In this document: in pieces, positions 11,497-63,695 of the stretch | Layout: every line of letters begins with the position of its first letter | Numbering within the stretch: the stretch's first letter is position 1 | Source of the DNA: Strigamia acuminata | Taxonomy: Eukaryota | Direction: 5' to 3' | Assembly (NCBI GenBank): GCA_949358305.1 | Contig: OX442314.1 | Location: forward strand, 9,238,001-9,302,000 | DNA length: 64,000 nucleotides | Translations under genes and position numbers: made by a program | Notes under the pieces: model-generated | The model's database searches: none | Told to the model about the DNA's origin: nothing | Seen by the model: only the letters and a program-made list of their open reading frames with translations

Positions 11497-11905
11497 AATC
11501 AATTTTTCCACAAAAAAATCATTATTTTCACATAAAAAACAATTTTTCCACAGAAAAATCAATTTTTCCACAGAAAAATCAATTTTTCCACAGAAAAATC
11601 AATTTTTCCACAAAAAAATCAATTTTTCCACAAAAAAATCAATTTTTCCACAAAAAAATCAATTTTTCCACAAAAAAATCAATTTTTCCACAAAAAAATC
11701 AATTTTTCCACAAAAAAATCAATTTTTCCACAAAAAAATCAATTTTTCCACAAAAAAATCAATTTTTCCACAAAAAAATCAATTTTTCCACAAAAAAATC
11801 AATTTTTCCACAAAAAAATCAATTTTTCCACAAAAAAATCAATTTTTCCACAAAACAATCAATTTTTCCACAAAACAATCAATTCTTTCACAAATAAATC
11901 AATTT
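11497..11905. repeat. 20-bp minisatellite, left block
   Basis: Unit AATCAATTTTTCCACAAAAA. Confidence 0.95.
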
Positions 11906-12943
11906 TGTTGTGTTCTGTATATGTGTTGAACTGCTGGAGCAGCGATTGAAAGAAGATAATTGTCGGTCTGTGGATATGAAGTGGCAAGCCATGACGTGCA
12001 AACCAATCCTTTAAAACCCGGACGGTTGCCGCGGCTGTAGTGGTTTTCATGATTGCCACCTCGCACCATTTAGACTTTGCATCAACTGCCAATAAAAAAT
12101 TATAGTTCATAAATGGACCCGCAAAATCTAGGTGAACCCTTCCCCATACGGTGTCTGGAAGATTCCTTTGGGGAGAGGGCAGATTGCGAGCGCAGATGTC
12201 GCAACCCTTTATTGTTATTTCGATTTGGGAGTCGAACTGGGGCCACCAAACCACAAGAGCGGGCCAATAATTTAGTCCGCACTATGCCTGCATGACCGGC
12301 ATGAAGTTCAATTAGTACACTGCTGTTCCGTAACTTGTGCGGAATAATTATTCTTTCTCCGAAAAATAAAATTCCATCATTAGTTGATAAGGAATGGCGA
12401 ATTTTGTAAAAAGGTTGCAAGTTGCATTTTGACTTATTTAGCCTTAGACCCTTTTCTTTGAATACATTCAAAACCATATAGAAGTTGATGAGGTGTTCCT
12501 CATCAGTGGTCCCTGTAGTGCATGTGGCATCAATAAAAGGTCTGGTCATGAGAGCGGGAGCCACTAATTTGCTTCACAGCTTTTTGTAAAATAGCTGGGA
12601 CAGATGAGATGCGGGATGCCATAAAAAAGTTGGTTCACTTCATCCCATGTGTGTGTTTATGACACACAATTGTTTACTCGTTATAAGCATCCTCGTCGTT
12701 GAACTGCTGGAGCAGCAATTGAAAGAATGTGATTGTCGGTCTTTGTCTTAACTACATTTGAATTATTCTTGAGAAAGAGCAAGGGAAGTATACAACATGA
12801 GCACCCTTATATTTTGTAACCAATATTGGTTACAAAATTGTTAAAGGTCACGCATTGAAAGAGGGAGGGTAATAAAAGAGAGAGTGCACAAGGCCAATAA
12901 ATGTACATAACATTTCACTGCTAAACACTGCAGTTATATATCC
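11906..12943 (-). mobile_element. Degenerate, internally deleted Ty3/Gypsy pol fragment (Mag/K02A2.6-like) inserted in the minisatellite; boundaries approximate
   Basis: Frameshifted RT piece (EEHLINF...GLRLNKSKC), integrase zinc domain (LHAGHAG...CDIC) and core (WGRVHLDFAGP, AVDAKSKW, FARHGLP). Direct repeat of about 45 bp at 11925 and 12698. Confidence 0.85.
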
Positions 12944-14240: not shown

Positions 14241-14711
14241 AATCCGATTTTCCAAAATCCGATTTCGTTTTTATGACGGAAAAACCGTCACTTCCGGGCT
14301 CCCAAAATCAGCTAAATCAGCGAAATCCATTTTATATTGAACGCGCCTAATATTTTACCCAAAAAATCAATTTATTCTACTCAAAAAATCAACAACAAAG
14401 AGTTAGTATGTAACTTTCTAAAATTACACGTCCGAACACGTCTATCCAACAAATCCCGAACCCAAAAGAAACCAAACCAACAAAAAAAAACGCCCGCTTG
14501 TAAAAACGAAAAGCAAAACGTAAACAAATGACTTTCACTTTAATCCAGTTCCTAAACATTCGAAAGTTTTCGCGGGAAGTGATTCACCTGAGGTTACGCA
14601 CCTGTTGACACACCTGCAACCGGTGAGGGGAAACGATGACCGTGACTCGAGACTCCACCATCATCACTGACCTCGTTTTCGAGCCGGCAACAGGGTCGTC
14701 AACCTTCGTCG

Positions 14712-14731
14712 TAACAAGTTCCGACATGTTC
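14712..14731. promoter_or_regulatory. p53-family response element candidate
   Basis: TAACAAGTTC-CGACATGTTC: two adjacent RRRCWWGYYY half-sites with intact CWWG cores, one mismatch each and no spacer, about 180 bp upstream of ATG 14910. Confidence 0.5.
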
Positions 14732-14909
14732 TCGCCAAACCACAACCTCGCACCCGATTGGCTCCCACACACCGCGCGCGAAACATCCGCAAATGACGTC
14801 ACGCCAACAAACAGACGGACAAACCGAAGCGGTTACGTCACGCGCGGATGATGCCGAGAGTTGTGGAGTGCGAGTGCACGTGGAGCGAAGGCTCAGATTG
14901 AGTTATGCG

Positions 14910-17352
14910 ATGGAGACGTGCGAGTGCTGCGACAAGTGGTCATCTCTGATGGGTTCTTCGTCCGTTCGTCTGCCGCGTTGGATGCCGTTCGCGGGCGTGC
15001 TCCGCTCGACCGGAGCGCGGGTGATGCACGCGCTGGTCGTCAACGTGCCCGTGCAACTCGTGTTTGATGGACAAGTGCAAATCTTTGCGATGCACACGTT
15101 GGTGCAGGTTGTGTTCCACACCGTGTTCACGGCTGCTTCGAGGCTAAATCAAGGTGAGTCACTGAGTAAATTTAGATTTTTTTAATTTGTCTTGATTTAT
15201 TTTTTAGTTTTGCTTTTTTTTTTCACTTTTTTCACTTTCTTTCACTTGCTTTGTGTTTTCATTTTTTATTCATTTCTTCCATGTTTTTATTCACTTTTTC
15301 CACGTTTTCCCATGTATTTATTCATTTTTTCCATGTTTTTCCATGTTTTTCCACTTATTATTCATTTTTTCCATGTTTTATTCATTTTTTCTACGTTTTT
15401 ATTCATTTTTTCCACGTTTTCCCATGTATTTATTTCTTTTTTTCATGTTTTTCCATGTTTTTCCACTTATTATTCATTTTTTCCATGTTTTTATTCATTT
15501 TTTTCCATGTTTTTACTCATTTTTACCATGTTTTTATTCATTTTTTCCATGTTTTGCCATGTTTTTCCACGTTTTACCATGTTTTTATTCATTTTTTCCA
15601 TGTTTTGTCATGTTTTTCCACGTTTTACCATAATTTTCCATTTTTTATTCATTTTTTCCACTTATATTCATTTTTTGCATGTTTTTCCATGTTTTGCAAT
15701 GTATTTCCACCTTTTTTCACGTTTTCCCATGTTTTTCCTTTTCATTTTTCCTTTTTTCCCAATATATTCCAACATTTCCAATTTCTTTTTTTCTTTTTTC
15801 ACATTTTTGCATCAAAAAATTGACTTTTCCCGTTCTTTAGGCGACGGCACTTTACCCGATGTTGTTCCGCCGCTGGAGCAAGACGTGTACGGGAGCATCG
15901 GACACGGACTCAGGCTATTAGCCGACGATTTTGACGGCGGCTCCACAAACCCGACGACGAGTCTCTTCGGCTGCTTGTCAGTTATTTTCGCACAGGTGAG
16001 ACATTTCTGCACGTCAAAACGCACTTTTTTCGACCGAGAAACGGCGAGATGAGCGCGTTTTGATGTTTATCTGGTGTTGGTGACAGCTGCATCGTTAATT
16101 TGATGGCGAAACAAGTCGAAATGAGTCGATCTGACACTTTACAAATGACCCAGCCCATTAAATCCACAAATAAACTCAATGCACCGCATTCAATGTTTTT
16201 TATTTTTATTTTTATTAATTTTTTCAATTTTAATTATCATTGAGTTTGGTGGATTCTGATGGCAAGCAGTTGAGTGGCGCCATCTGGCGGTGATAAAGGA
16301 GGTGCGCTTAATTTGTGATGAATTTGTGATGCAATGCGTAAAATTGGAATGGCAGCTGAATAATTAGATGGAGTGACCACTCTAGTTGTCCGAGCCTTTG
16401 TCCAGTTTAATTTATTCATTGGTATTTAGAATTTTTTTTTAATTTTTTTTAAATTTTTTTTTTAAATTTTTATTTATTTATTTATTCATAGAAGTGATAT
16501 TTATGACGTCATATTTCATGCGGAGATTGTGTTTGACTTATTAAATTTTCATGAAATGTTTGTATAAGTTCTAATCACTTGCATCAACAGATTGGTTAAG
16601 TCAACACGTTGATCCAAATTGATCCTGACTTTATATCTCGCGTTCTAAAAATTCGATTTAATTAAAAATGGGGGGAGGAGTGTAAAATAAAAGAGTGGTT
16701 TTTATTATTAACACTAGGTGCGTTCAAATTGGTTTAAAAAAATCTGCTTAAATGTTTTAAGTCGATAACCTCGTTTTCATTTCTGGATATGACGGTTTTA
16801 TGTCATATTTTGCTTAAGTTAGGCCAAGGATGCGATTTGCGCATGCTCAGTTGAACAATCATTCATTTCTCAATTGCGCAAAAGCCTGCGTATTAGTGAT
16901 ACAGAAACGAATCGCGATATAACGAATTATTCGTTATAACGAATCACGATATAACGAATTATTCGTTATAACGAATCACGATAGAACGAATTATTCGTTA
17001 TAACGAATAGGTAAAAATGTCCCATTTGGTTGGTTGGCCGTAGAACACTATGTTAAAAAAAATTCGTTATAACGAATTATCGTTATAACGAACTGATTTT
17101 TTGGTTCCTTGCTATTCGTTGTAAGGAGTTTCGACTGTATTAGTATTTTGTTGAGTAAATAAGTCGCTTATTTCACTTATTTGTAGTTTTAGTATTTGTT
17201 TAAGTGGCGGATAATTTGAACGCAATTGGTGATTTTTTTGTTTATTTTTTTATTTATTTAAATTTTATTTTTTTTTATTAATTTTTTTATTTATTTATTT
17301 GTAGGGTTGGCATTTCCTCGTTCAACTGATGGATTATTTGTGGAATTTTTAG
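14910..17352 (+). CDS. Putative BH3-only (PUMA/EGL-1/Bim-like) pro-apoptotic protein, about 148 aa; exons 14910-15153, 15841-15995, 17305-17352 (start codon uncertain)
   Basis: Donor AAG|GTGAGT (15154, phase 1) joins in frame to acceptor ttctttag (15840). Donor CAG|GTGAGA (15996, phase 0) joins acceptor tttgtag (17304). Product ends ...YGSIGHGLRLLADDFDG...SLFGCLSVIFAQGWHFLVQLMDYLWNF*, i.e. a BH3 pattern LxxxADDF plus a hydrophobic tail. ATG 14910 has context GCGATGG. Confidence 0.6.
15250..15740. repeat. Degenerate T-tract repeat (about 10/20-bp period) inside intron 1 of the BH3 candidate
   Basis: Units TTTTCCATGT and TTTTATTCAT. Confidence 0.8.
16902..17137. mobile_element. Tc1/mariner-pogo-like MITE (left end deleted); related fragments near 1047, 6050, 22433
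   Basis: TA-CAG...GAGTTTCGACTG-TA ends with internal TTCGTTATAACGAA palindromes. It lies within a wider 12-bp inverted repeat (16719/17224). Confidence 0.6.
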
Positions 17353-28012: not shown

Positions 28013-31000
28013 ATGAATTTTCTAACATTATTGGTGTTAATAAGCCCCATTGCTGTACTATGCAACTGCGAAAATTACACTGAGATTTGCTATGACATCA
28101 AGAATTTCAGAAATATCAACAGCGTGCTCAGACTGTATAAAACAGCAACTTCAAGATCAGTAAGAATATATTTACTTCTATTAAGGCTTATATACAGAAA
28201 TGTTTAAATCTCACAAGGCTGAACTAATTCGAAAAAATGGATACCCAGTTGAGAATCACGATGTAACTACAGAGGACGGTTACATCCTCAGCTTACAAAG
28301 AATTCCGCACGGACTCACAACAGAACGTAAACGAGATGCTGCCCCTATTCTAATTCTTCATGGCATATTTGCATCTTCAGCAGCATACACCTATTTCACC
28401 AACAGTCTGCGTAAGTAAATAAGCTGTAATGAGCTCAAATTACGGCTAGGATTTATAACAATAAAACTAAGCTCATTGATGCCACAACGGGTCTTATACA
28501 AATACTTCTCAAATAACTCAATCTTAATTCAAACTTCAAGTTAAACACTAAGAGAAATAATGACTCTATTATTTCTCAATAAAAAGGAAGATTTATTCAA
28601 ACTTAGAATAAATACTAAATCAAATACAATATTATTAATACAGATATTATTTTGTGATAAAATGATAAATTAAATGACTGAAGAAATAATTTACTAAAAG
28701 AAAAGTAATCAGAAACAACGGAAAATGATAAAGAATACAATCGATTCGACGACTCCACTTCTCGGGAACGCCGAACGCTTGGATTCGCTTCACTCGACGC
28801 TCGGCTCGGCCTCGGCGTTTCTTCAACACGGACTCAATTCCGTCACAACTATCTCGCTCTCGTAAATTCGGGCGCAACCCCGACTCTTCAAACTTCTCTC
28901 CTTGCGACTCCGTCCTCTCAGTGAATCGCAACACGCCGGTTGCGATATGACTGCGACTAAATTCGCTTGCTTCTGTCACACAGACTCGACTTCGTAGCCC
29001 GACGATGGCGACGAAACTAAACGGTCTCTCCGCGGCGGTTGCTCGGCGGCAAGACAAACTCCTCGCTCAAACGACGATCGCTTGACGAGAATAAAATTCC
29101 CACTGTCACTAACTGAAGTAACAGCAAGAGATATCTCACAAATTGCTCTGGCAATTTGCAAGACTGAGTCCAAATACTCTGACAATCTTTCACTAAATCA
29201 GCTTGTAGAATGGTGTTTTCTCAGGAAGATTTTGGTGACTGGTTGCTCTCAAAGTAAGTTTCAAACTGAGGAGTTTTTCTGCTCCTCACAGGAAGTGTTT
29301 CCTGCTCCAGGAGGTTGCGGGCTGGTTTCCTTGGCGACCACCCACAATTCCTCCCACCCTGCCTAACTCCCTTTGTCTAGACAGGAAATCATAAAAAATA
29401 TAAAATAAAATAAAACAATCTCCAATTTAATATTTTATTTCGGGTTCATTCCCAATACTTCATTAGTGACCACTAGGGTCACTACAAAGCTTACATATAA
29501 ATATATTGGTCCTCAGAATGGGCCATCTTCAGTGGTATTTGCGTTTTGCTACCGATGTAACTCTACTAAATATTTCTGAAAGTGCTGACAATGCATCTAA
29601 TTTAATGATGATAAAGTATTAAAGTTGGGTGGGGAAATTTTTCGGTGACCCAAAATTTGACCTTGGGATGTTCCATCAAGGTCATTGGAAAATTATCTTG
29701 GAAACCGTTAGAGTTAGACAGAAATTTCCAATTGTAAACTTGTAGAGCAACATTTATTTAGTCTAAAAATGACTACTCAAATCTTTTGAACTAAAATTTT
29801 TAAGAAAATCGCACTGGAGTCTGGGATGACAACAGGTAACAAACATGCTTAGTTAGCAAGCAATGCATGCTTGACACGTGAGTGCTGACAGCCAATCAGC
29901 GCACAGAACAACGAATCAAGAGGATATAACACGCAGATATGAGTCCATGTTATCCTTAGTTTATGCTTGATCATATTTTCTTTGCAGCATACGCGCTAGT
30001 GAATGAAGGTTACGATGTTTGGCTTGGAAATTTTCGCAGTAGTTTTCAAGATACTCGCCACATCAAATATTCCCAATCTAATTTCAAATATTGGAATTTC
30101 GGGTATGGTTGATTAATTTCTTTTTCTGTTCTTTGTAATCACTTCTACCCTAGTATTGAAGAATTAGCTGAACTCGACACACCAGCAATGATTGAATACA
30201 TTCTGCAAACCACTAATCACATACAAGTATCAATCATTTCTATGTCTATGTCTACCACAACAACAACATACATGCTTGCTTTCAATCCAGAACTAAATGA
30301 AAAAGTAACTAAGATTAAGCTGTAAAGAAAAAGTCATAATCAAATGTCATTTCTAGATATCGAGGCATGTGCAATTAGCACCAACAGTGCATCTTGGTTA
30401 CATGACTGCAGTGATTCCATATTTTAAACTAAAGGTGTGGCAGTACAGAATAATTGTAGTCATAATTTTTCCTTTTCATACTTAATACAAAGTCCCAAAA
30501 ACCTCCCAATAGCTTGACTGTAGTTGGTTTAGAATACTTCTCTACTAATTCAAGATTTCTTGGGTCTGGTGAAATCCCTTTGTTGTCTATAACATAATGT
30601 AATTTGTGATGTACACCCCGATCGAGCGATGTGGGTGTACCATGGGAAACTCTTCACTCAACTCAAATTAAAATAGTTTCTTCAATTAACATTAACATTG
30701 ATTTAATAATAGAAAAGTGACAATATTTACAATAAATAAAGGTAAAATAAAAACACAACACAGAGCCTAATGACCATTTTATAATTACTGTTCAGTTCTT
30801 GGAACATGGATCCTTCCTAGTCCAAGCGTCTCTTGATGGTTTCGGTCTTTCTTACATCTTGGCACAATCACTTCACAACACAACACTTTGGCATAGGGGC
30901 TCAGCACCCAAAACAGCTTGATCCTTCTAGTACAAGATTCTACACACAACTGTCCTCTACAGTGACAGTTTTGGAAAGCTGCTAAACTATTTCATAGACC

Positions 31001-32322: not shown

Positions 32323-33299
32323 TGTGGTAATCTCAAAATATTCACCAACTTAGAAGATAAAATTAATTGTCTTCTAATTAATTTGACTGTGGCACACGCC
32401 AAGTCAGATCATGTGACCGAGGGGAGAAATCCTCTCTAGGCACATATCACCCCAGGTTGTCCGGGGTGAAAACGGTTATTAGCCGTTATGGTGCAATATG
32501 GTGTAATAACCACTAGTTGCACCCATTTGAGCTAAGTGCGCAGGTTTTCTGCGCAATATTGAAGCGTGCTGGGCTCGCGCCTTGGCTCAAATCGGGACTC
32601 TGAAAAATAACACACAACCACAAACATCACTGCTTTTGCTCCTGAAAGAAAAGTATTGATAGTGGACTCGTGTTCTTCAGTTTCACCTGCTATCTTTGTG
32701 CAACAAACGCACAAAGCCAGCAATTCTGCTTGAATTAGCCGTAGCTAATTCCAGCAATCGAGAAGAGAAGTTTCCCGACGATCGTGAACCATCGCCGTCG
32801 CTGTTGCGCGAACGACAGCCACCGCCATCGTACGAGAGCCGGACGCCTGCCCCGTGAACCACCGCCACTGAGAGCCGTCGTACGAGGACAGAAGAAACTC
32901 ACGAGAACCATCGTCTTCGACCATCGTTCGTGAGTTTGCAGAACGAAGACAATTTGCCTTCGCCTAACAACATTGTGTTGTTTAAGCGCCATTTCTGACG
33001 CTTTGTAGCTTGCAACAGTCGTTGCAAGCCCTTCCTTTGTTTCATTGTTTCCCGCTCATTTTAATACGCGACTTGTCGCACCTTGTGATATTCTTAATTT
33101 TAACTAGTCATTTCCATTGTAATTAAACCGAATAAAACATATTGTGATTTTTATACTGAAAACTATCTTTTTATTTCTTTTCCTTAAACTTAACCCCTAG
33201 ATAATTTAAGGCCGCCGATTGTAAGTCTTTTAAAGCATTCACCTGCGGTTTCTGCTTAATTTATTAGAAATTAAGTGGATAAAAACCCGGATCGCAGCA
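32323..33299 (+). repeat. 5' LTR
   Basis: Direct repeat of 43746-44722 (offset 11423); identical by eye. Confidence 0.97.
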
Positions 33300-33301
33300 C
33301 G

Positions 33302-33319
33302 TGGGGGCCCGTCCGGGAT
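33302..33319 (+). other. Primer binding site, tRNA-Pro type
   Basis: TGGGGGCCCGTCCGGGAT, 2 nt after the LTR; 17/18 match to the MLV tRNA-Pro PBS TGGGGGCTCGTCCGGGAT. Confidence 0.9.
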
Positions 33320-33412
33320 AGTCATTGTATAAATTTTGATAGTTTAAAATTTACCCGCCATTTTTATCTTGCTTATCTTTCTTCTCTATCCTTTCTAAAT
33401 CCTCATTGAAAA

Positions 33413-36400
33413 ATGGCGACTCCTTCAGAGAAGAGACCGAGAGGAAGGCCGGCGAAGAGACGAGTGGCGATCGATCTACCAGTCGTGGATCAAGAAGTGA
33501 CTGAGTCACAAGAACTGTTTGAAGCCATGGATCAAACAGCTAACTGTAACTCGGCACAGTTAATCGTGAATGAATTCACGCAAGCGTTGGAGCGACAACA
33601 GCCATCCCCGCCCAGCGGCCAGTTGGACTTAAATAATCCAACTGGAAGTGGCCGTTCCAAGACGCAAAACGATGATTTGAATTTACGAATTCAATCATCA
33701 AGTGCAGAGCACTCGCTGAATTCATCACCGGTTCAAGGTGCAGCACAGCAAGATTCTGAGAACTCCAATATGGAAGTTTCTCATTCTCCCGTGCGTGTTA
33801 CCATGATGGACGCACTCCGTGAGCAAGCTAGGCTCGAGGGAGTAAAAGTCACTAGCGAAATGACTGTGGAACAAATCCACAAAGCTATGGTTCGCAAACA
33901 AAGCCAAAAAGACGTTGAAATCGTCAGAACAAGCTTGCAAGCAGAGTTCGAGCGAATGCATGCAGAAATGCAGCAGCAAAATGCCAAACTAAAACAACAA
34001 CGTGCAAATGATCACGTTAAGTTGTTAAATTTAGAGCAGGAAAAAGCTTCCTGGCTAATTACTGACGAAGAGCAACAACAAAGGCTCGAGCAACTAAATC
34101 AAGCACAAAAAGATTTAGAAATTGCTAATGAAAATTTGAGATTGGCCAACGCAAATTTGCGAGAAGCCAACGCAAATTTGCGAGAAGCCAACACAAATTT
34201 AATGACTGCCGAACTAACCGCCCCAGTTCGAGCGAGGGAAGTAATTCCCTCCACTTCTCGAAATTACGAGAATTATGCTGCAGAACAAGCAGCAAGAGCT
34301 AAGAGATTAGCACAACGAGAAAACGAAATATTTCTCGCTCGACAGCAGTCAGTAATTGATGCTGGTCAAGCCGCCAAAAGTCAAAGTACTGCAGAGCAGT
34401 TATTACGTGCCGACTTAGCTGCGCAAGCTCGTGAAAACGAAATTCTTCGCGCAGATCTACTGACAGTACAAGAAAATTTTGCAGTAGTTGTACAAAAAGT
34501 ACAAGACGTTTGCGGCGAAGATAATTTTGCAAAGCCAGCCCCAGTTTTGCAAAAAGGTGCTTCCAAATCACCTGAGTTGATTGATTTAACATCAGCTAAA
34601 CCAAAAGTCAGTCGACAATCAAGTTGGACTGACAGCGATGACTCACGCAGTAGTCGTGGAAGCCGTAATAGTCATCACAGTCGCAAAAAGCGAAAGCGAC
34701 AACCAGACCCGACCGAATATCATTCCCCAAACGTTCCGCAAAATTCGGATCGATTCTTTAGCAATAGTGACCGATTAATCGGATTGCTAGAGAGAAAAAA
34801 TAAAGAACGTGAGAAACCACACGATCGTGGACGGTCACACGATAATCCGCGAGAAGGCTCACCGAAACGAGATTGTCATAACGACATCCGTGATGGGCCG
34901 AGGTACCGTGGAAATCCACCAGGTGGTGACCCACCGGGTGGAGATAGTTCAGATGGACATGGAGGTGGCCACTCACGTGACCACAATTCGAATGGCAATC
35001 GAGGTGGAAGGGGACCACCAAATGGAGACCGTCGTCCGCCAGATGGCGACGATCCTCCGGACCCTGATCCGCCGCCAAATCCGAATCATGAATCTGCGTC
35101 AGATACAGATTCCTCACACCCCAGTGTGAGAGGGCGATCTCGTCACAGAACACGTAGTAGAACTCAAAGACCCGACTTCTACACGAAAGATGAGATTGAC
35201 CAGCTGTTGAGGCAAAATGCTCAACAACAGCGAAAAAGCAGAAGGGATAAAATTATTTTGCAAAAAATAAATGAATTCACTTCTGATAAATGGACTCATC
35301 AAACAACAGATGAAAAGTTCATTAGATGGGATCGAGTTATCCCACATGCCTATAATGGAAATTGGCAAGCAGGGTCAAACCTCTTGCTGGAAATATTCGA
35401 ACTAGGCAAGGTTCACAGTTTTGGCTGTGAAGGTGCATTGGCCCATCTAGTACCAAGAATACTGGTTGGCGATGTCAAGGAGTGGTTTCGCAGGAAAGAC
35501 TTCACGAAGTGGGATGACTTCGTTAAACAATTTATGTTTAAATTTGGTGAATCGAGCGAAGACATCAAGACGCTCTGGAGATGTCTTAAGCAACGAAAAG
35601 GCGAAAGCTTACATTCGTACATGCTAAGAGCAGAGAATCTGCTTGGCAGAATGCCACATGCTGTTACTGATGCAACAGCTGATGATCAGTTTAGAGCTGG
35701 CCTCACAGAATATAGTAAAAATATTCTGATGATGTCGGACGCTCCCGACCCGGGGAAATTCTCCGAGTTAAATGAGTTCATGGAGGTCAATCAATTGCGC
35801 ATTGACGAAAAGTACAAAGCTTACCTTACAGATAGCGAAAGGTCAGCGTACTTAAAGCGAGAGAAAAGACTCGCTGAGCAAAACAATGAAACCTTCAATG
35901 GTTTGAAATTGTTGCAGCCACCTAGTTACGAAGACTTTCTAGACGAGGTGGAAGGGAAGAGTTCGAAAAAAGAATCTTCCAAATAGGACGTCAAAAATCC
36001 TCATTCAGTTCCTAAGTTACATGCAAATATAACTGGAGCTGAAACTCCGTCGTCTGAAGCTGAAGAAGCTGAAGAGGAGGAGGAAGCAGGAGATGAGACG
36101 TTGGCTTTATTAGCCAAAGCAGCGGCGTTGTTAGCAAAAAATAACCCCGTTGCAGGCAAATGGAAGCCAAGAATGAAACCAAAAAATGTTTCATTTGACG
36201 CATCAAAGGTGAATACCGAAAGGAATTCAAAGTCACCTGCGGTGTCGCCAGAGCGCCGGTCTGACGCTCGTTCTCGTTCTGCCTCACCAGCAGCAACGAA
36301 AAAGAAATCGCCTGCCACTGATCCATGCAATTTATGCAAAAAATTAGGGCATTGGCAAAAAGACTGCCCATCCTCTAAGAGGGACAAACCAGTGTCAACA

Positions 36401-36457
36401 GCTGAGTTTGAAAAAGCAGTCAAGATCATAACTGACATGTTTCGAAAAAACTTGTAG
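33413..36457 (+). CDS. gag: Gag (coiled coil, capsid-like domain, CCHC knuckle), interrupted by an in-frame TAG at 35984-35986
   Basis: 857-aa ORF with a capsid/MHR-like segment (WDDFVKQF...QRKGESLHSY). The same frame stays open after the TAG to 36457 and contains CNLCKKLGHWQKDC. Confidence 0.9.
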
Positions 36458-36491
36458 ACGCAGATCCATCAGGTCTAGTGGACGCTGCGTC
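36445..36491 (+). other. -1 ribosomal frameshift signal at the gag-pol junction
   Basis: A AAA AAC heptamer in the gag frame, 5-nt spacer, then stem GACGCAG/CTGCGTC extended by TCCA/TGGA; pol lies in the -1 frame. Confidence 0.8.
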
Positions 36492-39400
36492 ACCTCTGAA
36501 ATCGGAATCAGAAAATGAAAATCTGAAGATAATGGAAGATGTTGGAGAAGTTATTGATGAATTAATTCGTCAAACAGAACTAAAAGAAAAGGAATCTCTT
36601 GAGTTAAAAAAGGAGATTGTCGGCGAAACTCCGACTGAAGAAGACACTTCCAATATTAAAGATAAAGTCGAAGTTAAAGACGATAGACCAAGCTCAGTTC
36701 CAGAGACACCTGGAATTGAGGAGTGCATTAAGTTATTTGCAACTACAACTCTTGATACCAATGAGTTATTAGACGAACTACCTTTGGAGCCTCCAATTAC
36801 AGTTCCTCATAAATTGCGCAAGTTTGAGTGCAAAGTGGCTGGAATACCAAACAGCCATGACCTTCCAACGTTGAAGTTAGAAACGTTAAAAGGTGTAATA
36901 ACTGGAATGTTGGACTCAGGAGCAAATAAAAGCTTCCTAGCCACTTCAGTTATTAACCAATTAGGTCTAGAAAAATATCTACGACCTATCGGACCTGGTG
37001 TCAGAGTTACGACGGCAAGTGAAGAAGTCACTCCAGATGGAACCATCCATCTTTCATTTCGATGGACACATGGCACGTTACGTCATCCGTTCATCGTAAT
37101 ACCAAATAAGTATCCCATGGTACTATTGGGTTGCGATTTTATGAATAAGTTAAAAATCCAACCTAATCCACAGACGATGTCTTGGAATTTCACGCAACCT
37201 GTGGATGCAGATTTACCCTACATTCCACAAGCGTTGCTGGAACGTTATTTGGAGAAAATAGAGGAACCCGATTCCTCATTTATGACCTTCGCAAAAGCAT
37301 ACGCTGCAAGTGTAACTCAAGGCAAAATTGATGAAGAGAATTTCATCCAAAAGTTAGTCGAAGAAGCTAACTTAAATTTGGAGCAATCCAAATTATTAGA
37401 AAAGATGTTATCCAAACATAAAAGGATTATTTCTAAAGATCCAGGTAAAACACACCTGGTTAAGCACAAAATTGAGCTTGACACGGAGAAACCCATCCGT
37501 GTCCCCTTTAAGAGCATAAACCCTCAAAAAAGGGAAATAATCAGACAACTTTGTCAAGACATGATTGACAAAGGCGTAGTCGTCAAAGCTGAAGGCGATT
37601 ACGGAATGCGGCCAGTCCTAGTCATGCGACCAGGAAACGACCCACGTTTGTGCATTGATTTTCGCCCCATCAATACACATACTAAGTACAACCCACCTCA
37701 AATGCCAACAATTGAGGAAATTCTGCGAGAAATCGGAGAATTCGAGTGGGTCAGTACTATAGATCTGACCAAGGGATATTGGCAGATAGAATTGCGACCT
37801 GAAGACAGAGAAAAAACTGCCTTCTGGAGCCCAATGGGAAGACTAATGTTTTTAGTCATGCCTTTCGGATTAGTAAACGCACCAACTACCTTCCAAGAAT
37901 TGATGGAAAAAGTTTTGGGTGACGTTTACAGAAAATTTGCATGGGCATATTTGGATGACATAATTGTTGTATCCAAATCGTTCGAAGAACACATTAAACA
38001 TTTAGATATAGTGTTTAAAAAATTGGCAGAAGCTAATTTACATGCGCATCCTGGCAAGACGCATCTCTGTAGAAAGGAATTAATTTTTCTAGGCTACAAA
38101 GTAGGAGTAGAAGGACTTGCAGTAGACCCTAAAAAAGTCGCTGCAATTACGCAATTTCCGGCTCCTACCAATCTTAAGGAATTACAAAGATTTCTAGGCA
38201 TGGTGAATTTCTTTCACCGCCTAATCAAGAATTTGGCCACAGTGGCAGAACCACTAAGGCCTCTCTTGAAGAAAGATGCGGAGTTCGATTGGGAACTGCA
38301 TCATCAGGCAGCATTCGACGCAATAAAAGACTTACTTACGAATGCTGAAACAATGAAGATGCCTGACTTGTACATGCCATTTATTGTTCATACTGACGCC
38401 AGTAGACAAGGGTTGGGTGCAGCCCTTACACAAAAGAAAAATGTGGATGGCCAAGAAGTCGAAATGCCATGCGTGTATGCAAGCAGAAGCTTGCAGCCCG
38501 CTGAAAAGAATTATACTGTGACAGAATTGGAATGTCTCGCAGTAGTATGGGGATTGCGCAAATTTCGCCCATACTTAGAGTACACTACATTCACTGTACA
38601 AACGGATCACCAAGCACTTAAGTGGTTGATGTCGTTATCTGACCCGTCGGGCAGATTAGCTCGTTGGCAAATGGAGCTGATGGCGTATTCGTTCGAAATA
38701 CAGTACGTCAAAGGTCCGCTAAATGTAATAGCAGACGCATTGTCACGTGCACCTGTCAGCGCACCTGACGAACCAGAAGACGATGGCGATAATGATGATT
38801 TATTATCATATTGTCCATCTCCTTGCCGAAGTTGGCAAATGGGAAAATTGAACGAATTACCCAAGTCAATAATAGTCAATGAAGATGATCAAGCATTAAT
38901 TAATTTTTGTATTAATATGCATGATCCGTCAGGAACCCCTGACGTCGAATTAAGAGCTATGATGGCTAAAAAATTCGAGCTGCCAACAACAAATGTTTTA
39001 ATTAAAGCATTTGCAGCTAAAATTGCTAAACAATTGGAATGTGATCCTCCAACGAGAGATGACATTATTGCAGAGCAAAAAGCAGACAAATTTTGCCAAT
39101 ATATTCGCAATTACTTATTAAATAAGCAATATCCAAGTTACATAGTAACTCGTCTTCAAAGAAGAAATTTTGAAAGACACGCGAGTACTTATCTCATTGA
39201 AGAAGATATGTTACTCCATTATCATCCTACCTCTACCGATGAATTGGGAGAGGATGGTAGGGCACTTAAAGTTGTTGTGCCAAGAAAATTGATTTATAAA
39301 ATCATTTGGTTGATGCACGGACATCCACTGTCCGGCCACCCAGGCATTGCGAGGACAATGTACCGAACTCGAAGAGTTTATACCTGGAAAGGTATGAAAC

Positions 39401-40704
39401 GTGATATTACACGTTTTATTCAGCATTGTCAAGGATGTCAGGCATGTAAGCCGAGATCAAAGACCGAAATTGAAGGCGCTCAAATTGGACCATTTGGACC
39501 ATTTGACTGCCTCAGTGTGGATTTGTCTGGTCCCAAACCAAGAACCAGAAAAAACAATACCCACATTTGCGTCATCGTAGATGTCGCTACACATTGGCCC
39601 GAATTATTTCCAATGTGTAATCCAACGGCAATAAAAGTTGCCAACACAATTTATCACTTATCAATGACTTTCGGATTTCCGAGACAAATCTTAAGTGATA
39701 ATGGACCACAATTTCGATCACAGGTCTATAAAGAATTTTGCAAAAAATTCGACATGTCGCGAACACCGACATCGATTTATCATCCACAAAGCAATCCTGT
39801 GGAGAGAACCAATCGAGATATTAAATATTTAGTTTCGATTTATTTAGATATTCATGACCAATGGGATGAGTATCTACGCGAATTTGCATTCAGTTTGAGA
39901 ACAACTGTAACAAGAGGCAGAGATTATTCTCCTGCTTTCTTAAATTTTTTCCGAGAATTAAGAATTCCTTGGGATCCAAGAATTCCGGAAGGAATTTTAG
40001 TCATTGATCCAAAAAATCCGCATTTATATGTTCAGAAATTAGAAGCAATAATTGCAGAGACGTATCAGCATATGATGTCTCACGTCTTAGATTTGAGACG
40101 CCGTGTCGAAGCTGAAAAATCAGATAAGAAATTCGATAACTTCAGACAGAATGATTTAGTCTGGCGAGAGTCTCATATTCTCTCAAATGCCGCTAAAGGA
40201 ATAGCAGCAGGCATTTCACCGAAAAGGAATGGGCCTTATGTAATTGTCAAAAGGTTACAAGGAGGCGCCTTTCAACTTCGACGGCTGAGTGATAATAAAA
40301 TTTATCCAGCTGTTCACGGCACTGAATTAATGCCGTACTTTCCCGTTTTCAACCAAGAAATTTGGCTGGAAGGGGAGGAAGTGGGTCAAAAAACAAAAAA
40401 TATTGTTAATACCTTGGATGATGTTGAATTATCCAAAATTCCTGTCGAAAACACGGAATCGAGTGAAAAATCGAAACTCAAAAATAACGAAGTCGATGAA
40501 ATAAACAAGCGACTTGAAAATGTTTCTCTTGATGAAAATCTAGAAAAGGAAATGTTTTTAGAAAAAGAGAAAATTTCAAACAATGAAGAAAATAACTCAT
40601 CTGACATTGGAGACGATGCTGATGACAATCTAAACAAGTTGGATTGTACTTCGCGAAAGTCAAAGTACAACTTGAGATCTCGCGTTCCGCGAGTCAAGAC
40701 ATAG
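36478..40704 (+). CDS. pol: Pol polyprotein (protease, RT, RNase H, integrase), probably made as a Gag-Pol fusion
   Basis: LDSGA; MPFGL and YLDD; TDAS...ELECLAVVW; HHCC zinc finger; VDL, SDNG, VER (DDE). Confidence 0.97.
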   Translation: MDAASPLKSESENENLKIMEDVGEVIDELIRQTELKEKESLELKKEIVGETPTEEDTSNIKDKVEVKDDRPSSVPETPGIEECIKLFATTTLDTNELLDELPLEPPITVPHKLRKFECKVAGIPNSHDLPTLKLETLKGVITGMLDSGANKSFLATSVINQLGLEKYLRPIGPGVRVTTASEEVTPDGTIHLSFRWTHGTLRHPFIVIPNKYPMVLLGCDFMNKLKIQPNPQTMSWNFTQPVDADLPYIPQALLERYLEKIEEPDSSFMTFAKAYAASVTQGKIDEENFIQKLVEEANLNLEQSKLLEKMLSKHKRIISKDPGKTHLVKHKIELDTEKPIRVPFKSINPQKREIIRQLCQDMIDKGVVVKAEGDYGMRPVLVMRPGNDPRLCIDFRPINTHTKYNPPQMPTIEEILREIGEFEWVSTIDLTKGYWQIELRPEDREKTAFWSPMGRLMFLVMPFGLVNAPTTFQELMEKVLGDVYRKFAWAYLDDIIVVSKSFEEHIKHLDIVFKKLAEANLHAHPGKTHLCRKELIFLGYKVGVEGLAVDPKKVAAITQFPAPTNLKELQRFLGMVNFFHRLIKNLATVAEPLRPLLKKDAEFDWELHHQAAFDAIKDLLTNAETMKMPDLYMPFIVHTDASRQGLGAALTQKKNVDGQEVEMPCVYASRSLQPAEKNYTVTELECLAVVWGLRKFRPYLEYTTFTVQTDHQALKWLMSLSDPSGRLARWQMELMAYSFEIQYVKGPLNVIADALSRAPVSAPDEPEDDGDNDDLLSYCPSPCRSWQMGKLNELPKSIIVNEDDQALINFCINMHDPSGTPDVELRAMMAKKFELPTTNVLIKAFAAKIAKQLECDPPTRDDIIAEQKADKFCQYIRNYLLNKQYPSYIVTRLQRRNFERHASTYLIEEDMLLHYHPTSTDELGEDGRALKVVVPRKLIYKIIWLMHGHPLSGHPGIARTMYRTRRVYTWKGMKRDITRFIQHCQGCQACKPRSKTEIEGAQIGPFGPFDCLSVDLSGPKPRTRKNNTHICVIVDVATHWPELFPMCNPTAIKVANTIYHLSMTFGFPRQILSDNGPQFRSQVYKEFCKKFDMSRTPTSIYHPQSNPVERTNRDIKYLVSIYLDIHDQWDEYLREFAFSLRTTVTRGRDYSPAFLNFFRELRIPWDPRIPEGILVIDPKNPHLYVQKLEAIIAETYQHMMSHVLDLRRRVEAEKSDKKFDNFRQNDLVWRESHILSNAAKGIAAGISPKRNGPYVIVKRLQGGAFQLRRLSDNKIYPAVHGTELMPYFPVFNQEIWLEGEEVGQKTKNIVNTLDDVELSKIPVENTESSEKSKLKNNEVDEINKRLENVSLDENLEKEMFLEKEKISNNEENNSSDIGDDADDNLNKLDCTSRKSKYNLRSRVPRVKT

Positions 40705-41046
40705 CGTTGACTTTCACCTTTTGGGTTCACCCAAAAGATCCGAGAGGGCAATCTCGTGACGTCATTCGTAGTTCACACTCGAATGACAACGTTCACAATG
40801 CGTTATAATTTGTGACGTCATTCGGTGTCACCGAAACAAGTTCGTTTCTCCAATCAACGAACTTAGCCACTTTTCCGATAAGTTTTGAAGTGGATGCATC
40901 GACTCCGATACCACACGACAGTTTTTATTGATTCAGCAAACTGTAAGTTATTTTTCTGAAAGAAAAATTCGATAAATATATTTAATATAGTTTATTACTT
41001 CTTTCTAGCCGAAAGAATTTCTTTTTCGACGCGAAAAAGAAAACGA

Positions 41047-43693
41047 ATGGCAGACGACGAAGTCAACCTCCATGCGGACGAGGAAACGCCGATGGAAGGA
41101 GCCGGTAACGATGTCCAATTATCGTTACAACAGAGGGTAAATTATTAAAATAATTTTCACTTGGTGTTTCAGTCAGAAAAATTGAGTAATTCCACTTTTC
41201 CTGACTTCAAACACAAGCCGCTCAAAAATAAAAATGGCGGCTATAAAAGTCACGTGCTTCCAGCATGTGCGAAGGGAGTTGCCATGACAACCATCATCCC
41301 TTAGTGGTTCACTGCCACAAGCGCTAAGCTTAAAAAATATTTCAAATAAGAAATTATTTGTTTATTTTTAAATAAACTAATTTATTTATTTTTTTTTTCG
41401 AATATAGATCGAGAGGGATCGAGAAACGCCGTTCGCGCTTCCCGACCATGTGCCAACTCAGCACCCGCTGATTTTTCGAGCGGCGTTGCCCGAAAAAATT
41501 AGACGTCTGAAGACGGCGAACAACACGTGGTGGAAGCTGCGCCACGACTTCAGCAGATCGGCTCTGCAAGGATTTGGAGCAAGAGGTCGATTCATCGAGC
41601 GCCTTCACGTGGACGGTGTCGACGAAATCGAGTGGACGCTCGACGAGAGCCCCCCAGGACCACTAGCTGCCGAGTTGCTGCACAACCAGTGGCCAGTGAC
41701 GCCACGAGAGCGTCACGAGCGCAGAAGAGCGCTAAAGAGTACCGGAATTAATTACGGTGCTCTCACCCAATTGAGGAAGAACCTCAAAACAACACAACGC
41801 GAAGTCGTGCAACGGTACCGCAAGTCCGTTCGTGACGGGAACCCGCAATTTCCCGCCACACAAACCGAGCTCCATCAGTTGGCGCTCGCCGGGTGTTTTA
41901 ATGATTTTCCGGGATTTTTCCCGTCGAAAGCACTCCGAGCTGCCGCAGTGCAGCTTCGCGTCGACGAAAATCGACAACTGGCTCAAGCACTCGAGGCAGA
42001 GGAGCAAGCGCGCTGCGCTCTCCCTTTTTATCGGGAAGATGAAATTCCGGCCCCAGCGGCCATCCATCCTCCGCCACAAGACGAGGATTTGAGGGTGGGG
42101 CAACTCCCTCCGCCGGTTCCGGTCCGACCGATGTTCCGCGAATCGAGCCGCGATCGAGAGGAGCGACAGAGGCGATCGCGCCCATATTCGACTGAAGCAC
42201 CGCCACCACGCCCGCAGTCGCGACGAGGACGGACACCAGAGACGTTTGGCTCGTCGTCCTCGCTGAGTTTCGAATCGGACTCCACAATCCAGTCCGCCCG
42301 AAGTAGCCGAACCGCCTCCACGTTCAAAGTGGACAACCCGGCTACTCCATACGCCATGAGACGTGTTGTCGGTGATATCTCTCCCGACTGTAGCGTGCCA
42401 GTACCTGGACACGCTAGCCGCTTGCCCGAACATGGATATGTTTCCCGCTTGCCGGCTGGAGTTAGCAACCTGCAACTCCGGCCATTTTTTAGTGAGTCAT
42501 TCGGACCACAATGGACCTGCTACGAGCAGCAACCCATTAGAGCACAGCAGGAAGTGCTCCAGAAGCTGGACGCATACCAAAGCGCCCAGATCGCCGAGTC
42601 GCAGAAGGACTGGCAGAGATTGGCTGAAAGGCTAGAGCTCTCAGACATCATGACCATTGATGATCCCCGACTAATGGATTTCCAGCGTCAGCTAATTCCG
42701 GGGATGACTAGGGTGTTGTACCCTGGTGTTCTTCCTTCGCCAGGACAGGCGTTAGCGGCCATCACGTACCTTTGGACCGCGCCGATGGGCCTGTCGGAGA
42801 AGAAAGTCGAGCTGTGGTACCACCTCCGGCTCGACCCGCCTACGATCTTAGCCGAGCTAATAAAGCAAGTCGTAGCAAACGGTGAGACCGAAGAAGAGGC
42901 CGCCGTTCGGTTGCGAACCGAGTGGTCCTTTGCGAAGGCCACGGCGCGAATAGCCGGAAGACCACCGCTTCCAGTTACAAGCGCCACAGCAGCTGCGTCA
43001 CTGGCTGTTTTTCAGTCGGCCCAAGAAGGCGCTGGATGTTCGTTTTGGCCGGAGAACGCCGGAAGTTCTCAAACTCCAGCCGGAGTTCAACGGGCAGTCG
43101 AACCCCGTAAGCTCACCGGAGTTGGTCGAGCGCAGGGACGAGGCGTCACACCCTCGTCAACCTCCGCACCCGCGTTGGTTTTCTTGGGCTCGCCGAGCCA
43201 TTTCGACGATGCCTCGACGGAAGACTCACGTCCACCGCCGCCGCCGCCGCCAGCCAAGCCGGAGACGAAGGTCAAGCCGCTGAAGAAGGAGTCGGCTTTC
43301 AAGACCCTGATGCGCCTGTATCCGCACTTCTATTTGACGCCGGATACAAGAACACTGCTGAGCAACAATCACAAGTTGTCGAGGCAGGTGTTTATGTGGC
43401 TCGAAGACCACATTCGGGTGTTAAGCCCACCATCGGTGCTCCATGATCGACTCCTGAGAGCACGATTAGCGCCAGAGGATCCGATAGAGTTTGCGGCGCT
43501 GGGATTTTTCAACCGAGCGAACTCGGCAAGAATCATCCAGGTTTGGCTTCATGTCAACCCTGGAATGGTCTCCGGACCAAACGCAGGTCGCGACCTGTGT
43601 ACGGTTAACGAGCGGTCCAACCCGAGGGACGACACCACGGATATGATGCGCCCGTTGACGCCTGAGCGAACTCAGAACATGGACGAATCATAA
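41047..43693 (+). CDS. Spliced third ORF of the Gypsy element, about 791 aa, function unknown; exons 41047-41136 and 41408-43693
   Basis: A 30-codon ATG exon ending AGG|GTAAAT splices in phase 0 to a T-tract/TAG acceptor at 41407, in frame with the 747-aa ORF (whose track start is a GTG). A 66-nt GTAAGT..CTAG intron lies upstream at 40943-41008. Confidence 0.8.
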
Positions 43694-43732
43694 ATTGGTT
43701 CGTTCATTTTCTCTCCATGTAAGATTCGTCTT

Positions 43733-43745
43733 AAATGGGGGGATG
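43733..43745 (+). other. Polypurine tract
   Basis: AAATGGGGGGATG immediately before the 3' LTR. Confidence 0.8.
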
Positions 43746-44722
43746 TGTGGTAATCTCAAAATATTCACCAACTTAGAAGATAAAATTAATTGTCTTCTAA
43801 TTAATTTGACTGTGGCACACGCCAAGTCAGATCATGTGACCGAGGGGAGAAATCCTCTCTAGGCACATATCACCCCAGGTTGTCCGGGGTGAAAACGGTT
43901 ATTAGCCGTTATGGTGCAATATGGTGTAATAACCACTAGTTGCACCCATTTGAGCTAAGTGCGCAGGTTTTCTGCGCAATATTGAAGCGTGCTGGGCTCG
44001 CGCCTTGGCTCAAATCGGGACTCTGAAAAATAACACACAACCACAAACATCACTGCTTTTGCTCCTGAAAGAAAAGTATTGATAGTGGACTCGTGTTCTT
44101 CAGTTTCACCTGCTATCTTTGTGCAACAAACGCACAAAGCCAGCAATTCTGCTTGAATTAGCCGTAGCTAATTCCAGCAATCGAGAAGAGAAGTTTCCCG
44201 ACGATCGTGAACCATCGCCGTCGCTGTTGCGCGAACGACAGCCACCGCCATCGTACGAGAGCCGGACGCCTGCCCCGTGAACCACCGCCACTGAGAGCCG
44301 TCGTACGAGGACAGAAGAAACTCACGAGAACCATCGTCTTCGACCATCGTTCGTGAGTTTGCAGAACGAAGACAATTTGCCTTCGCCTAACAACATTGTG
44401 TTGTTTAAGCGCCATTTCTGACGCTTTGTAGCTTGCAACAGTCGTTGCAAGCCCTTCCTTTGTTTCATTGTTTCCCGCTCATTTTAATACGCGACTTGTC
44501 GCACCTTGTGATATTCTTAATTTTAACTAGTCATTTCCATTGTAATTAAACCGAATAAAACATATTGTGATTTTTATACTGAAAACTATCTTTTTATTTC
44601 TTTTCCTTAAACTTAACCCCTAGATAATTTAAGGCCGCCGATTGTAAGTCTTTTAAAGCATTCACCTGCGGTTTCTGCTTAATTTATTAGAAATTAAGTG
44701 GATAAAAACCCGGATCGCAGCA
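43746..44722 (+). repeat. 3' LTR
   Basis: Direct repeat of 32323-33299, followed by TSD GCTT. Confidence 0.97.
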
Positions 44723-63300: not shown

Positions 63301-63334
63301 GTCCTTGTAGTTGTTTCTTATGATGATCAGACAT
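57362..63334 (-). CDS. Large low-complexity protein of unknown function (1527 aa plus an in-frame 461 aa after TGA at 58751-58753)
   Basis: Fills almost the whole interior of element 2; RNES repeats, SPTxLKL helical repeats and [IV]DLT motifs; no CCHC, protease, YxDD or DDE motifs seen. Confidence 0.75.
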
Positions 63335-63695
63335 GATGTTAATATTAGATAGGATAGTGAAGAAAGAAACAGCTTAAGTTAGAGAAATTACTTCTAAACT
63401 CTGTTATCCTTTCCCCCCTTTTTTGTTTTCAAACAAAAACAAAAATTCCACACCTATTTTTACTACAACTCCAAATAAGAAGTTCCTCAATCCAACTAAC
63501 TCTCACAAAATAATTTTCAAAACAAATTAGGTCCCTCAACTAAATAAAAGTTGTTAAGGTTCAAATTTTAACGGGCCCCCAGGTGTAATGAGCCTGAATA
63601 CACGGTTTTCACTTAACACACTGCGCATGCGCAGATTCGCTAGCGCCATCTGGTGAGGAATTTTGTAAGCACAGTATTAGGATAACCCTGAGCAC

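What the first reader, a model, noticed from the sequence alone, without database searches (positions are those of the whole stretch)
14910..17352. Hidden three-exon BH3-only apoptosis gene candidate
Seen: three short exons among repeats join in frame through canonical splice sites into about 148 aa, containing IGHGLRLLADDFDG and ending in hydrophobic SLFGCLSVIFAQGWHFLVQLMDYLWNF. Established: BH3 helices use the pattern h-x-x-x-L-x-x-h-[GAS]-D-[DE]-h (PUMA IGAQLRRMADDLN, EGL-1 IGSKLAAMCDDFD), and many BH3-only proteins have C-terminal membrane anchors and no other conserved domain. Inference: this is an invertebrate BH3-only protein, a class that similarity searches usually miss and that the ORF track shows only as pieces.
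Basis: partly seen in the sequence, partly recalled or inferred. Interest (0 to 1): 0.88.

Follow-up and report, generated by a model that had tools for sequence, protein, structure and literature searches.

The report
Centipede gene with a BH3 motif
A small three-exon gene, conserved in the centipede Strigamia and unlike any named protein, carries a textbook BH3 cell-death motif and a p53-type site upstream, so it likely encodes a stress-induced apoptosis trigger of a kind so far reported in arthropods only from flies.

Summary
The gene model holds. Exons 14910-15153, 15841-15995 and 17305-17352 join through GT-AG sites into 148 aa. One relative exists in the databases searched: uncharacterised Strigamia maritima T1J153, 76% identical over 147 aa. 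It matches all three exons, including the 15-residue last exon up to the same final residue. The BH3-like motif has all five canonical hotspots in both species. On a profile built from 23 Bcl-2 BH3 segments fetched here it ranks 2nd of 68,209 window 13-mers, though below most real BH3s. There is no Pfam, PDB or fold match and no BH1/BH2. New here: a near-perfect p53-type site 179 bp upstream of the ATG (22 of 20,000 shuffles) and two CRE-type sites. Against: only one ortholog; the motif is not significantly better conserved than the rest (p=0.14); the C-terminal anchor is weak; the N-terminal half is hydrophobic and conserved, unlike a disordered BH3-only protein. Binding and killing are untested. 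Verdict: a real gene, about 65% a pro-apoptotic BH3-only protein, and a new family of a known class.

The parts
14585..14616 (+). Three CACCTG E-box sites within 32 bp (possible bHLH or Snail-type input; function untested)
   Evidence: Positions 14585, 14599, 14611; 41 CACCTG/CAGGTG sites in the whole window; no shuffle test run
14712..14731 (+). p53-response-element-like site: two RRRCWWGYYY half-sites, no spacer, one mismatch at position 1 of each
   Evidence: 22 of 20,000 dinucleotide shuffles of the 500 bp upstream of the ATG give such a site; consensus as in PMC8268032. One other site with 2 mismatches lies at 52376
14794..14840 (+). Two CRE/ATF-type sites (TGACGTCA at 14794, TTACGTCA at 14833)
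   Evidence: 13 of 20,000 shuffles give two or more; motif identity recalled
14501..15200 (.). GC- and CpG-rich island over the presumed promoter and exon 1
   Evidence: GC 0.50-0.59, CpG observed/expected 1.3-1.5 in 300-bp windows
14848..14901 (+). 17-codon upstream ORF in another frame, ending 8 bases before the main ATG (relevant only if transcribed)
14910..15153 (+). Coding exon 1, residues 1-81: N-terminal Cys cluster, then a conserved hydrophobic Val-rich segment
   Evidence: 62 of 81 identical to Strigamia T1J153; residues 58-76 hydropathy 1.52
15841..15995 (+). Coding exon 2, residues 82-133: Pro/acidic linker, BH3-like motif, start of the hydrophobic tail
   Evidence: phmmer E 5e-14, 73% identity to T1J153
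15897..15935 (+). BH3-like motif, residues 101-113: HP1 I101, HP2 L105, HP3 L108, small A109, AC1 D110, HP4 F112
   Evidence: 12 of 13 identical in Strigamia, the one change being D to E at 111; profile score
17305..17352 (+). Coding exon 3, residues 134-148 and stop: end of an amphipathic hydrophobic tail
   Evidence: 12 of 15 identical; the Strigamia protein ends at the same residue
17483..18184 (+). AT-rich region with candidate polyadenylation signals (first AATAAA at 17614); the true 3' end is unknown

Best explanation
This three-exon gene encodes a 148-residue protein conserved in the centipede Strigamia, and it likely acts as a pro-apoptotic BH3-only protein that would be switched on by stress and would neutralise pro-survival Bcl-2 proteins. 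Shown: the gene structure, the ortholog, the motif, and the upstream p53-type and CRE-type sites. Inferred steps: (1) p53 after DNA damage, and CREB/ATF-type factors, induce transcription through those sites; (2) the hydrophobic C-terminal helix brings the protein to the mitochondrial outer membrane or ER; (3) residues 101-113 fold into an amphipathic helix whose I101, L105, L108 and F112 enter the groove of a Bcl-2-type protein while D110 pairs with the Arg of its BH1 motif; (4) this frees a Bax/Bak/Bok-type effector or an Apaf-1-type adaptor and caspases are activated.
For: Ortholog over all three exons, 112 of 147 identical; 26 of 35 substitutions have BLOSUM62 >= 0 against 47% expected from single-base changes, p=0.0009. 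All four hydrophobic hotspots and the acidic one defined in PMC9171138 (passages) are present at canonical spacing in both species, and the L-X(3)-[GAS]-D core of PMC10107002 is met. The full pattern arose in 53 of 200,000 shuffles of the protein. It has the highest helical hydrophobic moment of the windows sampled (0.58). No other domain: Pfam 0, PDB nothing below E 0.026, one true relative among 1.84 billion representatives. p53-type site 22 of 20,000 and CRE pair 13 of 20,000 shuffles; PUMA and NOXA are direct p53 targets (PMC8268032 passages).
Against: Only one ortholog, and it is close. The motif (12 of 13) is not significantly better conserved than the rest (100 of 134; Fisher p=0.14), though it is better than the 20 residues that follow (10 of 20; p=0.013). 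The stricter substitution test (BLOSUM62 > 0, 14 of 35) gives p=0.085. The profile score exceeds only 3 of 23 leave-one-out scores of real BH3s (median 25.9), and an intronic 13-mer without the Asp scores higher. PMC9171138 states that BH3 patterns have little predictive value; the minimal core appears in 20% of shuffles. The position before the Asp is Ala rather than the usual Gly, and five Gly lie in or beside the motif (residues 99-115), lowering helix propensity (inference). The C-terminal segment scores 1.48 with no basic flank in the window's protein, and an internal segment is as hydrophobic (1.52). The N-terminal 81 residues are 77% conserved and hydrophobic, whereas BH3-only proteins are described as disordered (PMC8998228). 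The promoter motifs were chosen after looking, several were tried, and their conservation in Strigamia could not be checked.
Confidence: 0.65

Rival explanations
1. A small lineage-specific membrane-associated protein whose function lies in the conserved hydrophobic N-terminal half (possibly lipid-anchored through its Cys cluster); the BH3 likeness is coincidental.
For: Exon 1 is as conserved as the whole protein (62 of 81); two hydrophobic segments of equal strength; motif conservation not significantly above background; low predictive value of BH3 patterns (PMC9171138).
Against: The full five-hotspot pattern is rare by chance (53 of 200,000; profile 25 of 20,000). It lies between an acidic Pro-rich linker and a hydrophobic tail, as in BH3-only proteins. 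An independent p53-type site sits upstream.
Confidence: 0.2
2. The BH3 is real but serves a non-lethal role, such as a BNIP3/Beclin-like regulator of autophagy or mitophagy, or a decoy that binds Bcl-2 proteins without killing.
For: An aromatic-x-x-Ile stretch just before the motif resembles an LC3-interacting motif in both species (Y97 in the window, F in Strigamia; pattern recalled, very degenerate, not tested). Sayonara couples BH3 function to autophagy (PMC10107002 abstract).
Against: No BNIP3 or Beclin Pfam match. The motif is of the canonical type rather than the atypical BNIP3 type (recalled). A p53-type site fits killing as well or better.
Confidence: 0.1
3. A truncated or internally deleted descendant of a multi-domain Bcl-2 gene (like a Bcl-xS-type product) rather than an independently evolved BH3-only protein.
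For: The motif resembles BH3 segments of invertebrate Bcl-2 proteins fetched here (several read R-x-L-A-D-E-F). A Gly-Trp near the C-terminus faintly recalls the end of BH2.
Against: No Bcl-2 or BH4 Pfam match. No BH1/BH2 motif near the gene in six frames: one match, in a simple repeat elsewhere. Only 35 residues follow the motif. The last intron falls before Gly-Trp, whereas Bcl-2 genes break at the BH2 GGW (PMC8998228) and many fetched loci read through an intron right after it. No Bcl-2 protein among the HMMER hits.
Confidence: 0.04
4. Not a protein-coding gene: conserved non-coding or antisense sequence read in frame by two predictions.
For: The Strigamia entry is an uncharacterised model; 14,992 models of that genome were generated automatically (PMC4244043 passages). 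No transcript was seen here.
Against: Three exons with consensus splice sites stay in frame in both species, with only two single-residue indels and the same last residue. No antisense frame is open across exon 1. Substitutions lean conservative.
Confidence: 0.01

Closest known systems
Strigamia maritima T1J153 (UniRef100_T1J153, 'Uncharacterized protein')
   Same: Ortholog or close paralog: 76% identical over 147 aa, same exon-boundary sequences, same motif, same C-terminus.
   Different: Model is 21 residues longer at the N-terminus; carries no functional name; not found in the paper library.
Vertebrate PUMA, NOXA, BIM, BMF and nematode EGL-1/CED-13 (canonical BH3-only proteins)
   Same: Works like them by inference: short protein, single BH3 with HP1-HP4 and AC1, hydrophobic C-terminal helix, p53-type site upstream (PUMA and NOXA are p53 targets).
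   Different: No detectable sequence relationship. N-terminal half hydrophobic and conserved rather than disordered; tail lacks a basic flank in the window's protein.
Drosophila Sayonara (CG14044)
   Same: The arthropod BH3-only protein found in the searches; acts through Buffy and Debcl and downstream of p53 (PMC10107002).
   Different: Sayonara is a coiled-coil protein of family PTHR21974 whose BH3 is inferred only in muscomorph flies. No such protein was among the hits for this gene, so the two appear unrelated.
Multi-domain Bcl-2 family (PF00452)
   Same: BH3 segment scores on a profile made from their BH3s.
   Different: No BH1, BH2 or BH4, no Bcl-2 domain, too short after the motif.

Membership tests
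BH3-only proteins | BH3 motif with four hydrophobic hotspots and the acidic hotspot at canonical spacing, small residue before the Asp | tested here: met
   I101, L105, L108, A109, D110, F112 in the window and in Strigamia; definition from PMC9171138 and PMC10107002; profile test 25 of 20,000, though below most real BH3 scores
BH3-only proteins | No other BH motif and no Bcl-2 fold | tested here: met
   Pfam 0 families for the exons and for P0001; no BH1/BH2 motif near the gene; no PDB relative
BH3-only proteins | Motif conserved under selection in orthologs | tested here: inconclusive
   12 of 13 identical in the single ortholog; p=0.14 against the rest of the protein, p=0.013 against the next 20 residues
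BH3-only proteins | Intrinsically disordered outside the motif | tested here: inconclusive
   AlphaFold pLDDT 37 and 52 for exon 1 from 2-4 sequences cannot separate disorder from lack of alignment; composition suggests a flexible linker at 82-120 but a hydrophobic N-terminal half
BH3-only proteins | C-terminal membrane-targeting helix (common, not universal) | tested here: inconclusive
   Hydropathy 1.48 (window) and 1.55 (Strigamia), net charge -1 in the window's last 30 residues; predicted helical at low confidence
BH3-only proteins | Binds the groove of pro-survival Bcl-2 proteins through the motif | not tested
BH3-only proteins | Induces caspase-dependent death in a motif-dependent way | not testable with these tools
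   Needs expression and mutant assays
Direct p53 target genes | Two RRRCWWGYYY half-sites near the transcription start, bound and induced by p53 | tested here: inconclusive
   Site present at 14712-14731, 18 of 20 positions match, 22 of 20,000 shuffles; binding, induction and conservation untested; start site unknown
Sayonara / PTHR21974 | Homology to the coiled-coil family | tested here: not met
   Indirect: HMMER over 1.84 billion representatives returned only P0001 and one chance hit; no direct alignment to CG14044 was made
Multi-domain Bcl-2 family | BH1 (NWGR) and BH2 motifs in a helical-bundle domain, PF00452 | tested here: not met

The most novel reading that the evidence does not exclude
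Centipedes keep a compact, p53-inducible BH3-only killer of the PUMA/EGL-1 type, a new protein family. The p53 to BH3-only to Bcl-2 circuit would then operate in non-insect arthropods, and the insect reliance on IAP antagonists would be the derived state.
Probability: 0.4. Interest if true: 0.8.

Novelty: new member of a known kind. Interest (0 to 1): 0.6.

Why it matters
A 2022 survey found BH3-only proteins in C. elegans but not in other nematode branches or in insects, and its main text does not mention myriapods, chelicerates or crustaceans (PMC8998228). The fly protein Sayonara was described in 2023, with a BH3 inferred only in muscomorph flies (PMC10107002). A canonical-looking, possibly p53-driven BH3-only protein in centipedes would give a direct handle on whether arthropods ancestrally used a Bcl-2-gated death switch and how often BH3 motifs arise independently. 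It also shows that such genes sit unannotated in public proteomes.

Tried and rejected
Expression: no RNA holder listed; this says nothing for or against expression. The two listed runs are contigs that run unbroken through the first donor, first acceptor and second donor with no differences and no splice joint; they look like genomic DNA and may be the source sample. The second junction was not covered by any read-laying. No whole genome is held, so the organism's own Bcl-2 and p53 genes and any paralogs could not be sought. A search for a Strigamia Bcl-2 partner returned 13 proteins, none named from a myriapod. Structure predictions were uninformative, so no fold search was run. ESM Atlas gave no usable feature hit twice. 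The adenylate kinase match in PDB (E 0.026) and the ciliate repeat protein P0015 (E 3e-4, four repeats, no Asp) were rejected as chance. An antimicrobial-peptide reading suggested by P0015 was rejected: the motif is acidic and no signal-peptide-like N-terminus is seen. No relative in viral contigs: 141 pattern matches, none confirmed. Earlier scan findings: none in three look-ups. Paper searches with no hit: Strigamia + BH3, T1J153, Strigamia maritima + Bcl-2. Searches returned only off-topic listings.

Full report
Observation. The window is AT-rich, repeat-laden animal DNA; no whole genome is held. Exon GC is 0.59, 0.57 and 0.38 against 0.25 and 0.32 in the introns. Exon 1 lies in a CpG-rich island. 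The coding exons have no second copy in the window.

It is a real gene. A search with exon 2 found 1 protein among 30 candidates: Strigamia maritima T1J153 (P0001; E 5e-14), a geophilomorph centipede. It aligns over 147 residues with 112 identities, crosses both predicted junctions, and ends at the same residue; tblastn recovers the three exons in order. Identity by part is 62 of 81 in exon 1, 16 of 19 before the motif, 12 of 13 in the motif, 10 of 20 after it and 12 of 15 in exon 3. Of 35 substitutions 26 score zero or better in BLOSUM62 (47% expected, p=0.0009); the stricter count, 14 of 35 above zero, gives p=0.085. The window therefore probably comes from a related centipede (inference). 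The Strigamia entry is itself an uncharacterised model from a largely automatic annotation, so it is conservation evidence, not expression evidence. The start is uncertain. Strigamia's model begins 21 residues earlier and the window aligns there without a stop, but its only upstream in-frame ATG is at 14793, inside a CRE site. The shared Met is 14910.

It has no other relatives in reach. P0001 found only itself among 325 candidates. A profile of P0001 plus the three exons, run over 1.84 billion representatives, returned P0001 and one ciliate repeat protein that I reject as chance. Pfam gave nothing, PDB nothing credible, the Atlas no usable feature hit. AlphaFold models are low-confidence (pLDDT 37 and 52); the first draws the motif and the tail as two helices.

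The motif. PMC9171138 (passages) defines four hydrophobic hotspots and one acidic one. They map to I101, L105, L108, F112 and D110, with Ala before the Asp, and all are kept in Strigamia. The full pattern appears in 53 of 200,000 shuffles of the protein, the minimal core in 40,482 of 200,000. To avoid relying on remembered motifs I fetched Bcl-2 loci (1 viral, 117 metagenomic) and 13 related proteins, aligned 24 sequences (the 13 plus 11 chosen from the 118 loci), and built a profile from their 23 distinct BH3 segments. The motif scores 10.5 bits, best in the protein by 17 bits, 2nd of 68,209 window 13-mers, and 25 of 20,000 shuffles reach it; Strigamia scores 13.1. The limits are clear. The window score beats only 3 of 23 leave-one-out scores of real BH3s, the top window hit is an intronic stretch without the Asp, and the profile comes from multi-domain proteins, many closely related. 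The motif is not significantly better conserved than the rest of the protein (p=0.14). The same review warns that BH3 patterns predict poorly.

What surrounds the motif. An acidic Pro-rich linker precedes it and a hydrophobic tail follows. The tail's best 19-residue hydropathy is 1.48 with net charge -1, so 'membrane anchor' is plausible but not shown. Residues 58-76 are as hydrophobic (1.52) and well conserved. That N-terminal half, with its conserved Cys cluster, is the main feature that the BH3-only reading does not explain.

At 14712-14731, 179 bp before the ATG, two p53-type half-sites abut with one mismatch each at the first position (consensus from PMC8268032 passages). Such a site occurs in 22 of 20,000 dinucleotide shuffles of the 500 bp upstream; two CRE-type sites occur together in 13 of 20,000. 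One other two-mismatch p53-type site lies elsewhere in the window. Three E-boxes cluster at 14585-14616; E-box control of egl-1 in C. elegans is recalled, not checked. These motifs were picked after inspection and their conservation is unknown, but they are independent of the protein motif and point the same way: PUMA and NOXA are direct p53 targets, and Sayonara acts downstream of p53.

Mechanism. Shown: gene, ortholog, motif, upstream sites. Inferred: stress-induced transcription; membrane targeting by the tail; helix-in-groove binding to a pro-survival Bcl-2 protein; release of a Bax/Bak/Bok-type or Apaf-1-type effector; caspase activation. I put this at 0.65. Rivals: coincidental motif in a protein that works through its N-terminal half (0.20), a non-lethal BH3 role (0.10), a Bcl-2 remnant (0.04), not a gene (0.01). 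Binding and splicing remain open.

Comparison with what is known. It works like PUMA or EGL-1 by inference but shows no homology to them. BH3-only proteins are a collection of unrelated families sharing only the motif (PMC3945527 and PMC11463336 passages), so lack of homology is expected. Sayonara is a coiled-coil protein with a BH3 inferred only in muscomorph flies (PMC10107002, first of seven parts and passages) and appears unrelated. PMC8998228 (passages) reports no BH3-only protein in insects or most nematodes and does not mention myriapods. Searches for Strigamia with BH3, for T1J153, and for Strigamia maritima with Bcl-2 found no paper; some searches were seen as listings, and I read passages of PMC7456325 and PMC3634015. 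The library lacks most subscription journals, and I did not open supplements; those of PMC8998228 and PMC4244043 could bear on whether this protein was noticed before.

Verdict. A real, unannotated centipede gene and a good BH3-only candidate with an unexpected p53-type site. It would be a new family within a known class. Interest 0.6; 0.8 if p53-dependent killing through Bcl-2 is shown.

Noticed in passing
window 32323-44722: LTR retrotransposon with two 977-bp terminal repeats that are 100% identical, so a very recent insertion. It holds a gag-like ORF (33410-35986), a pol ORF with RT, RNase H and integrase (36436-40704) and a third 761-aa ORF (41408-43693) without a Pfam match.
   Followed up: partly
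window 28185-28415, 45116-45382, 51351-51629 (+): Three exons matching Abhydro_lipase PF04083: a tandem cluster of acid-lipase-type genes downstream of the finding, with the LTR element lying between the first and second.
   Followed up: partly
window 57362-63373 (-): Two long open frames in register (1540 and 462 aa) separated by one stop codon, low-complexity and charged, with no Pfam match above cut-off.
   Followed up: partly
window 11862-12573 (-): Degenerate retrotransposon integrase fragment about 2.3 kb upstream of the gene (weak PF17921).
   Followed up: partly
window 14848-14901 (+): 17-codon upstream ORF ending just before the main ATG; its first residues partly resemble the N-terminal extension of the Strigamia model, which may mean that extension is untranslated leader read in frame. 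Not testable without Strigamia DNA.
   Followed up: partly
L005:1-1185+, L014:4-1074+, L019:883-1956-, L021:1-1095+: Single open frames in metagenome contigs that fuse an N-terminal CARD (PF00619) to a C-terminal Bcl-2 domain (PF00452), 4 of 4 tested; many similar loci appear. CARD is not mentioned in the main text of PMC8998228; no dedicated literature search was made.
   Followed up: partly
window 52376-52395: A second p53-type site with two mismatches, inside the third lipase-type gene region.
   Followed up: no
window 16906-17060: Short palindromic repeat in intron 2 with a related copy at about 1055-1151; probably a small mobile-element remnant.
   Followed up: no
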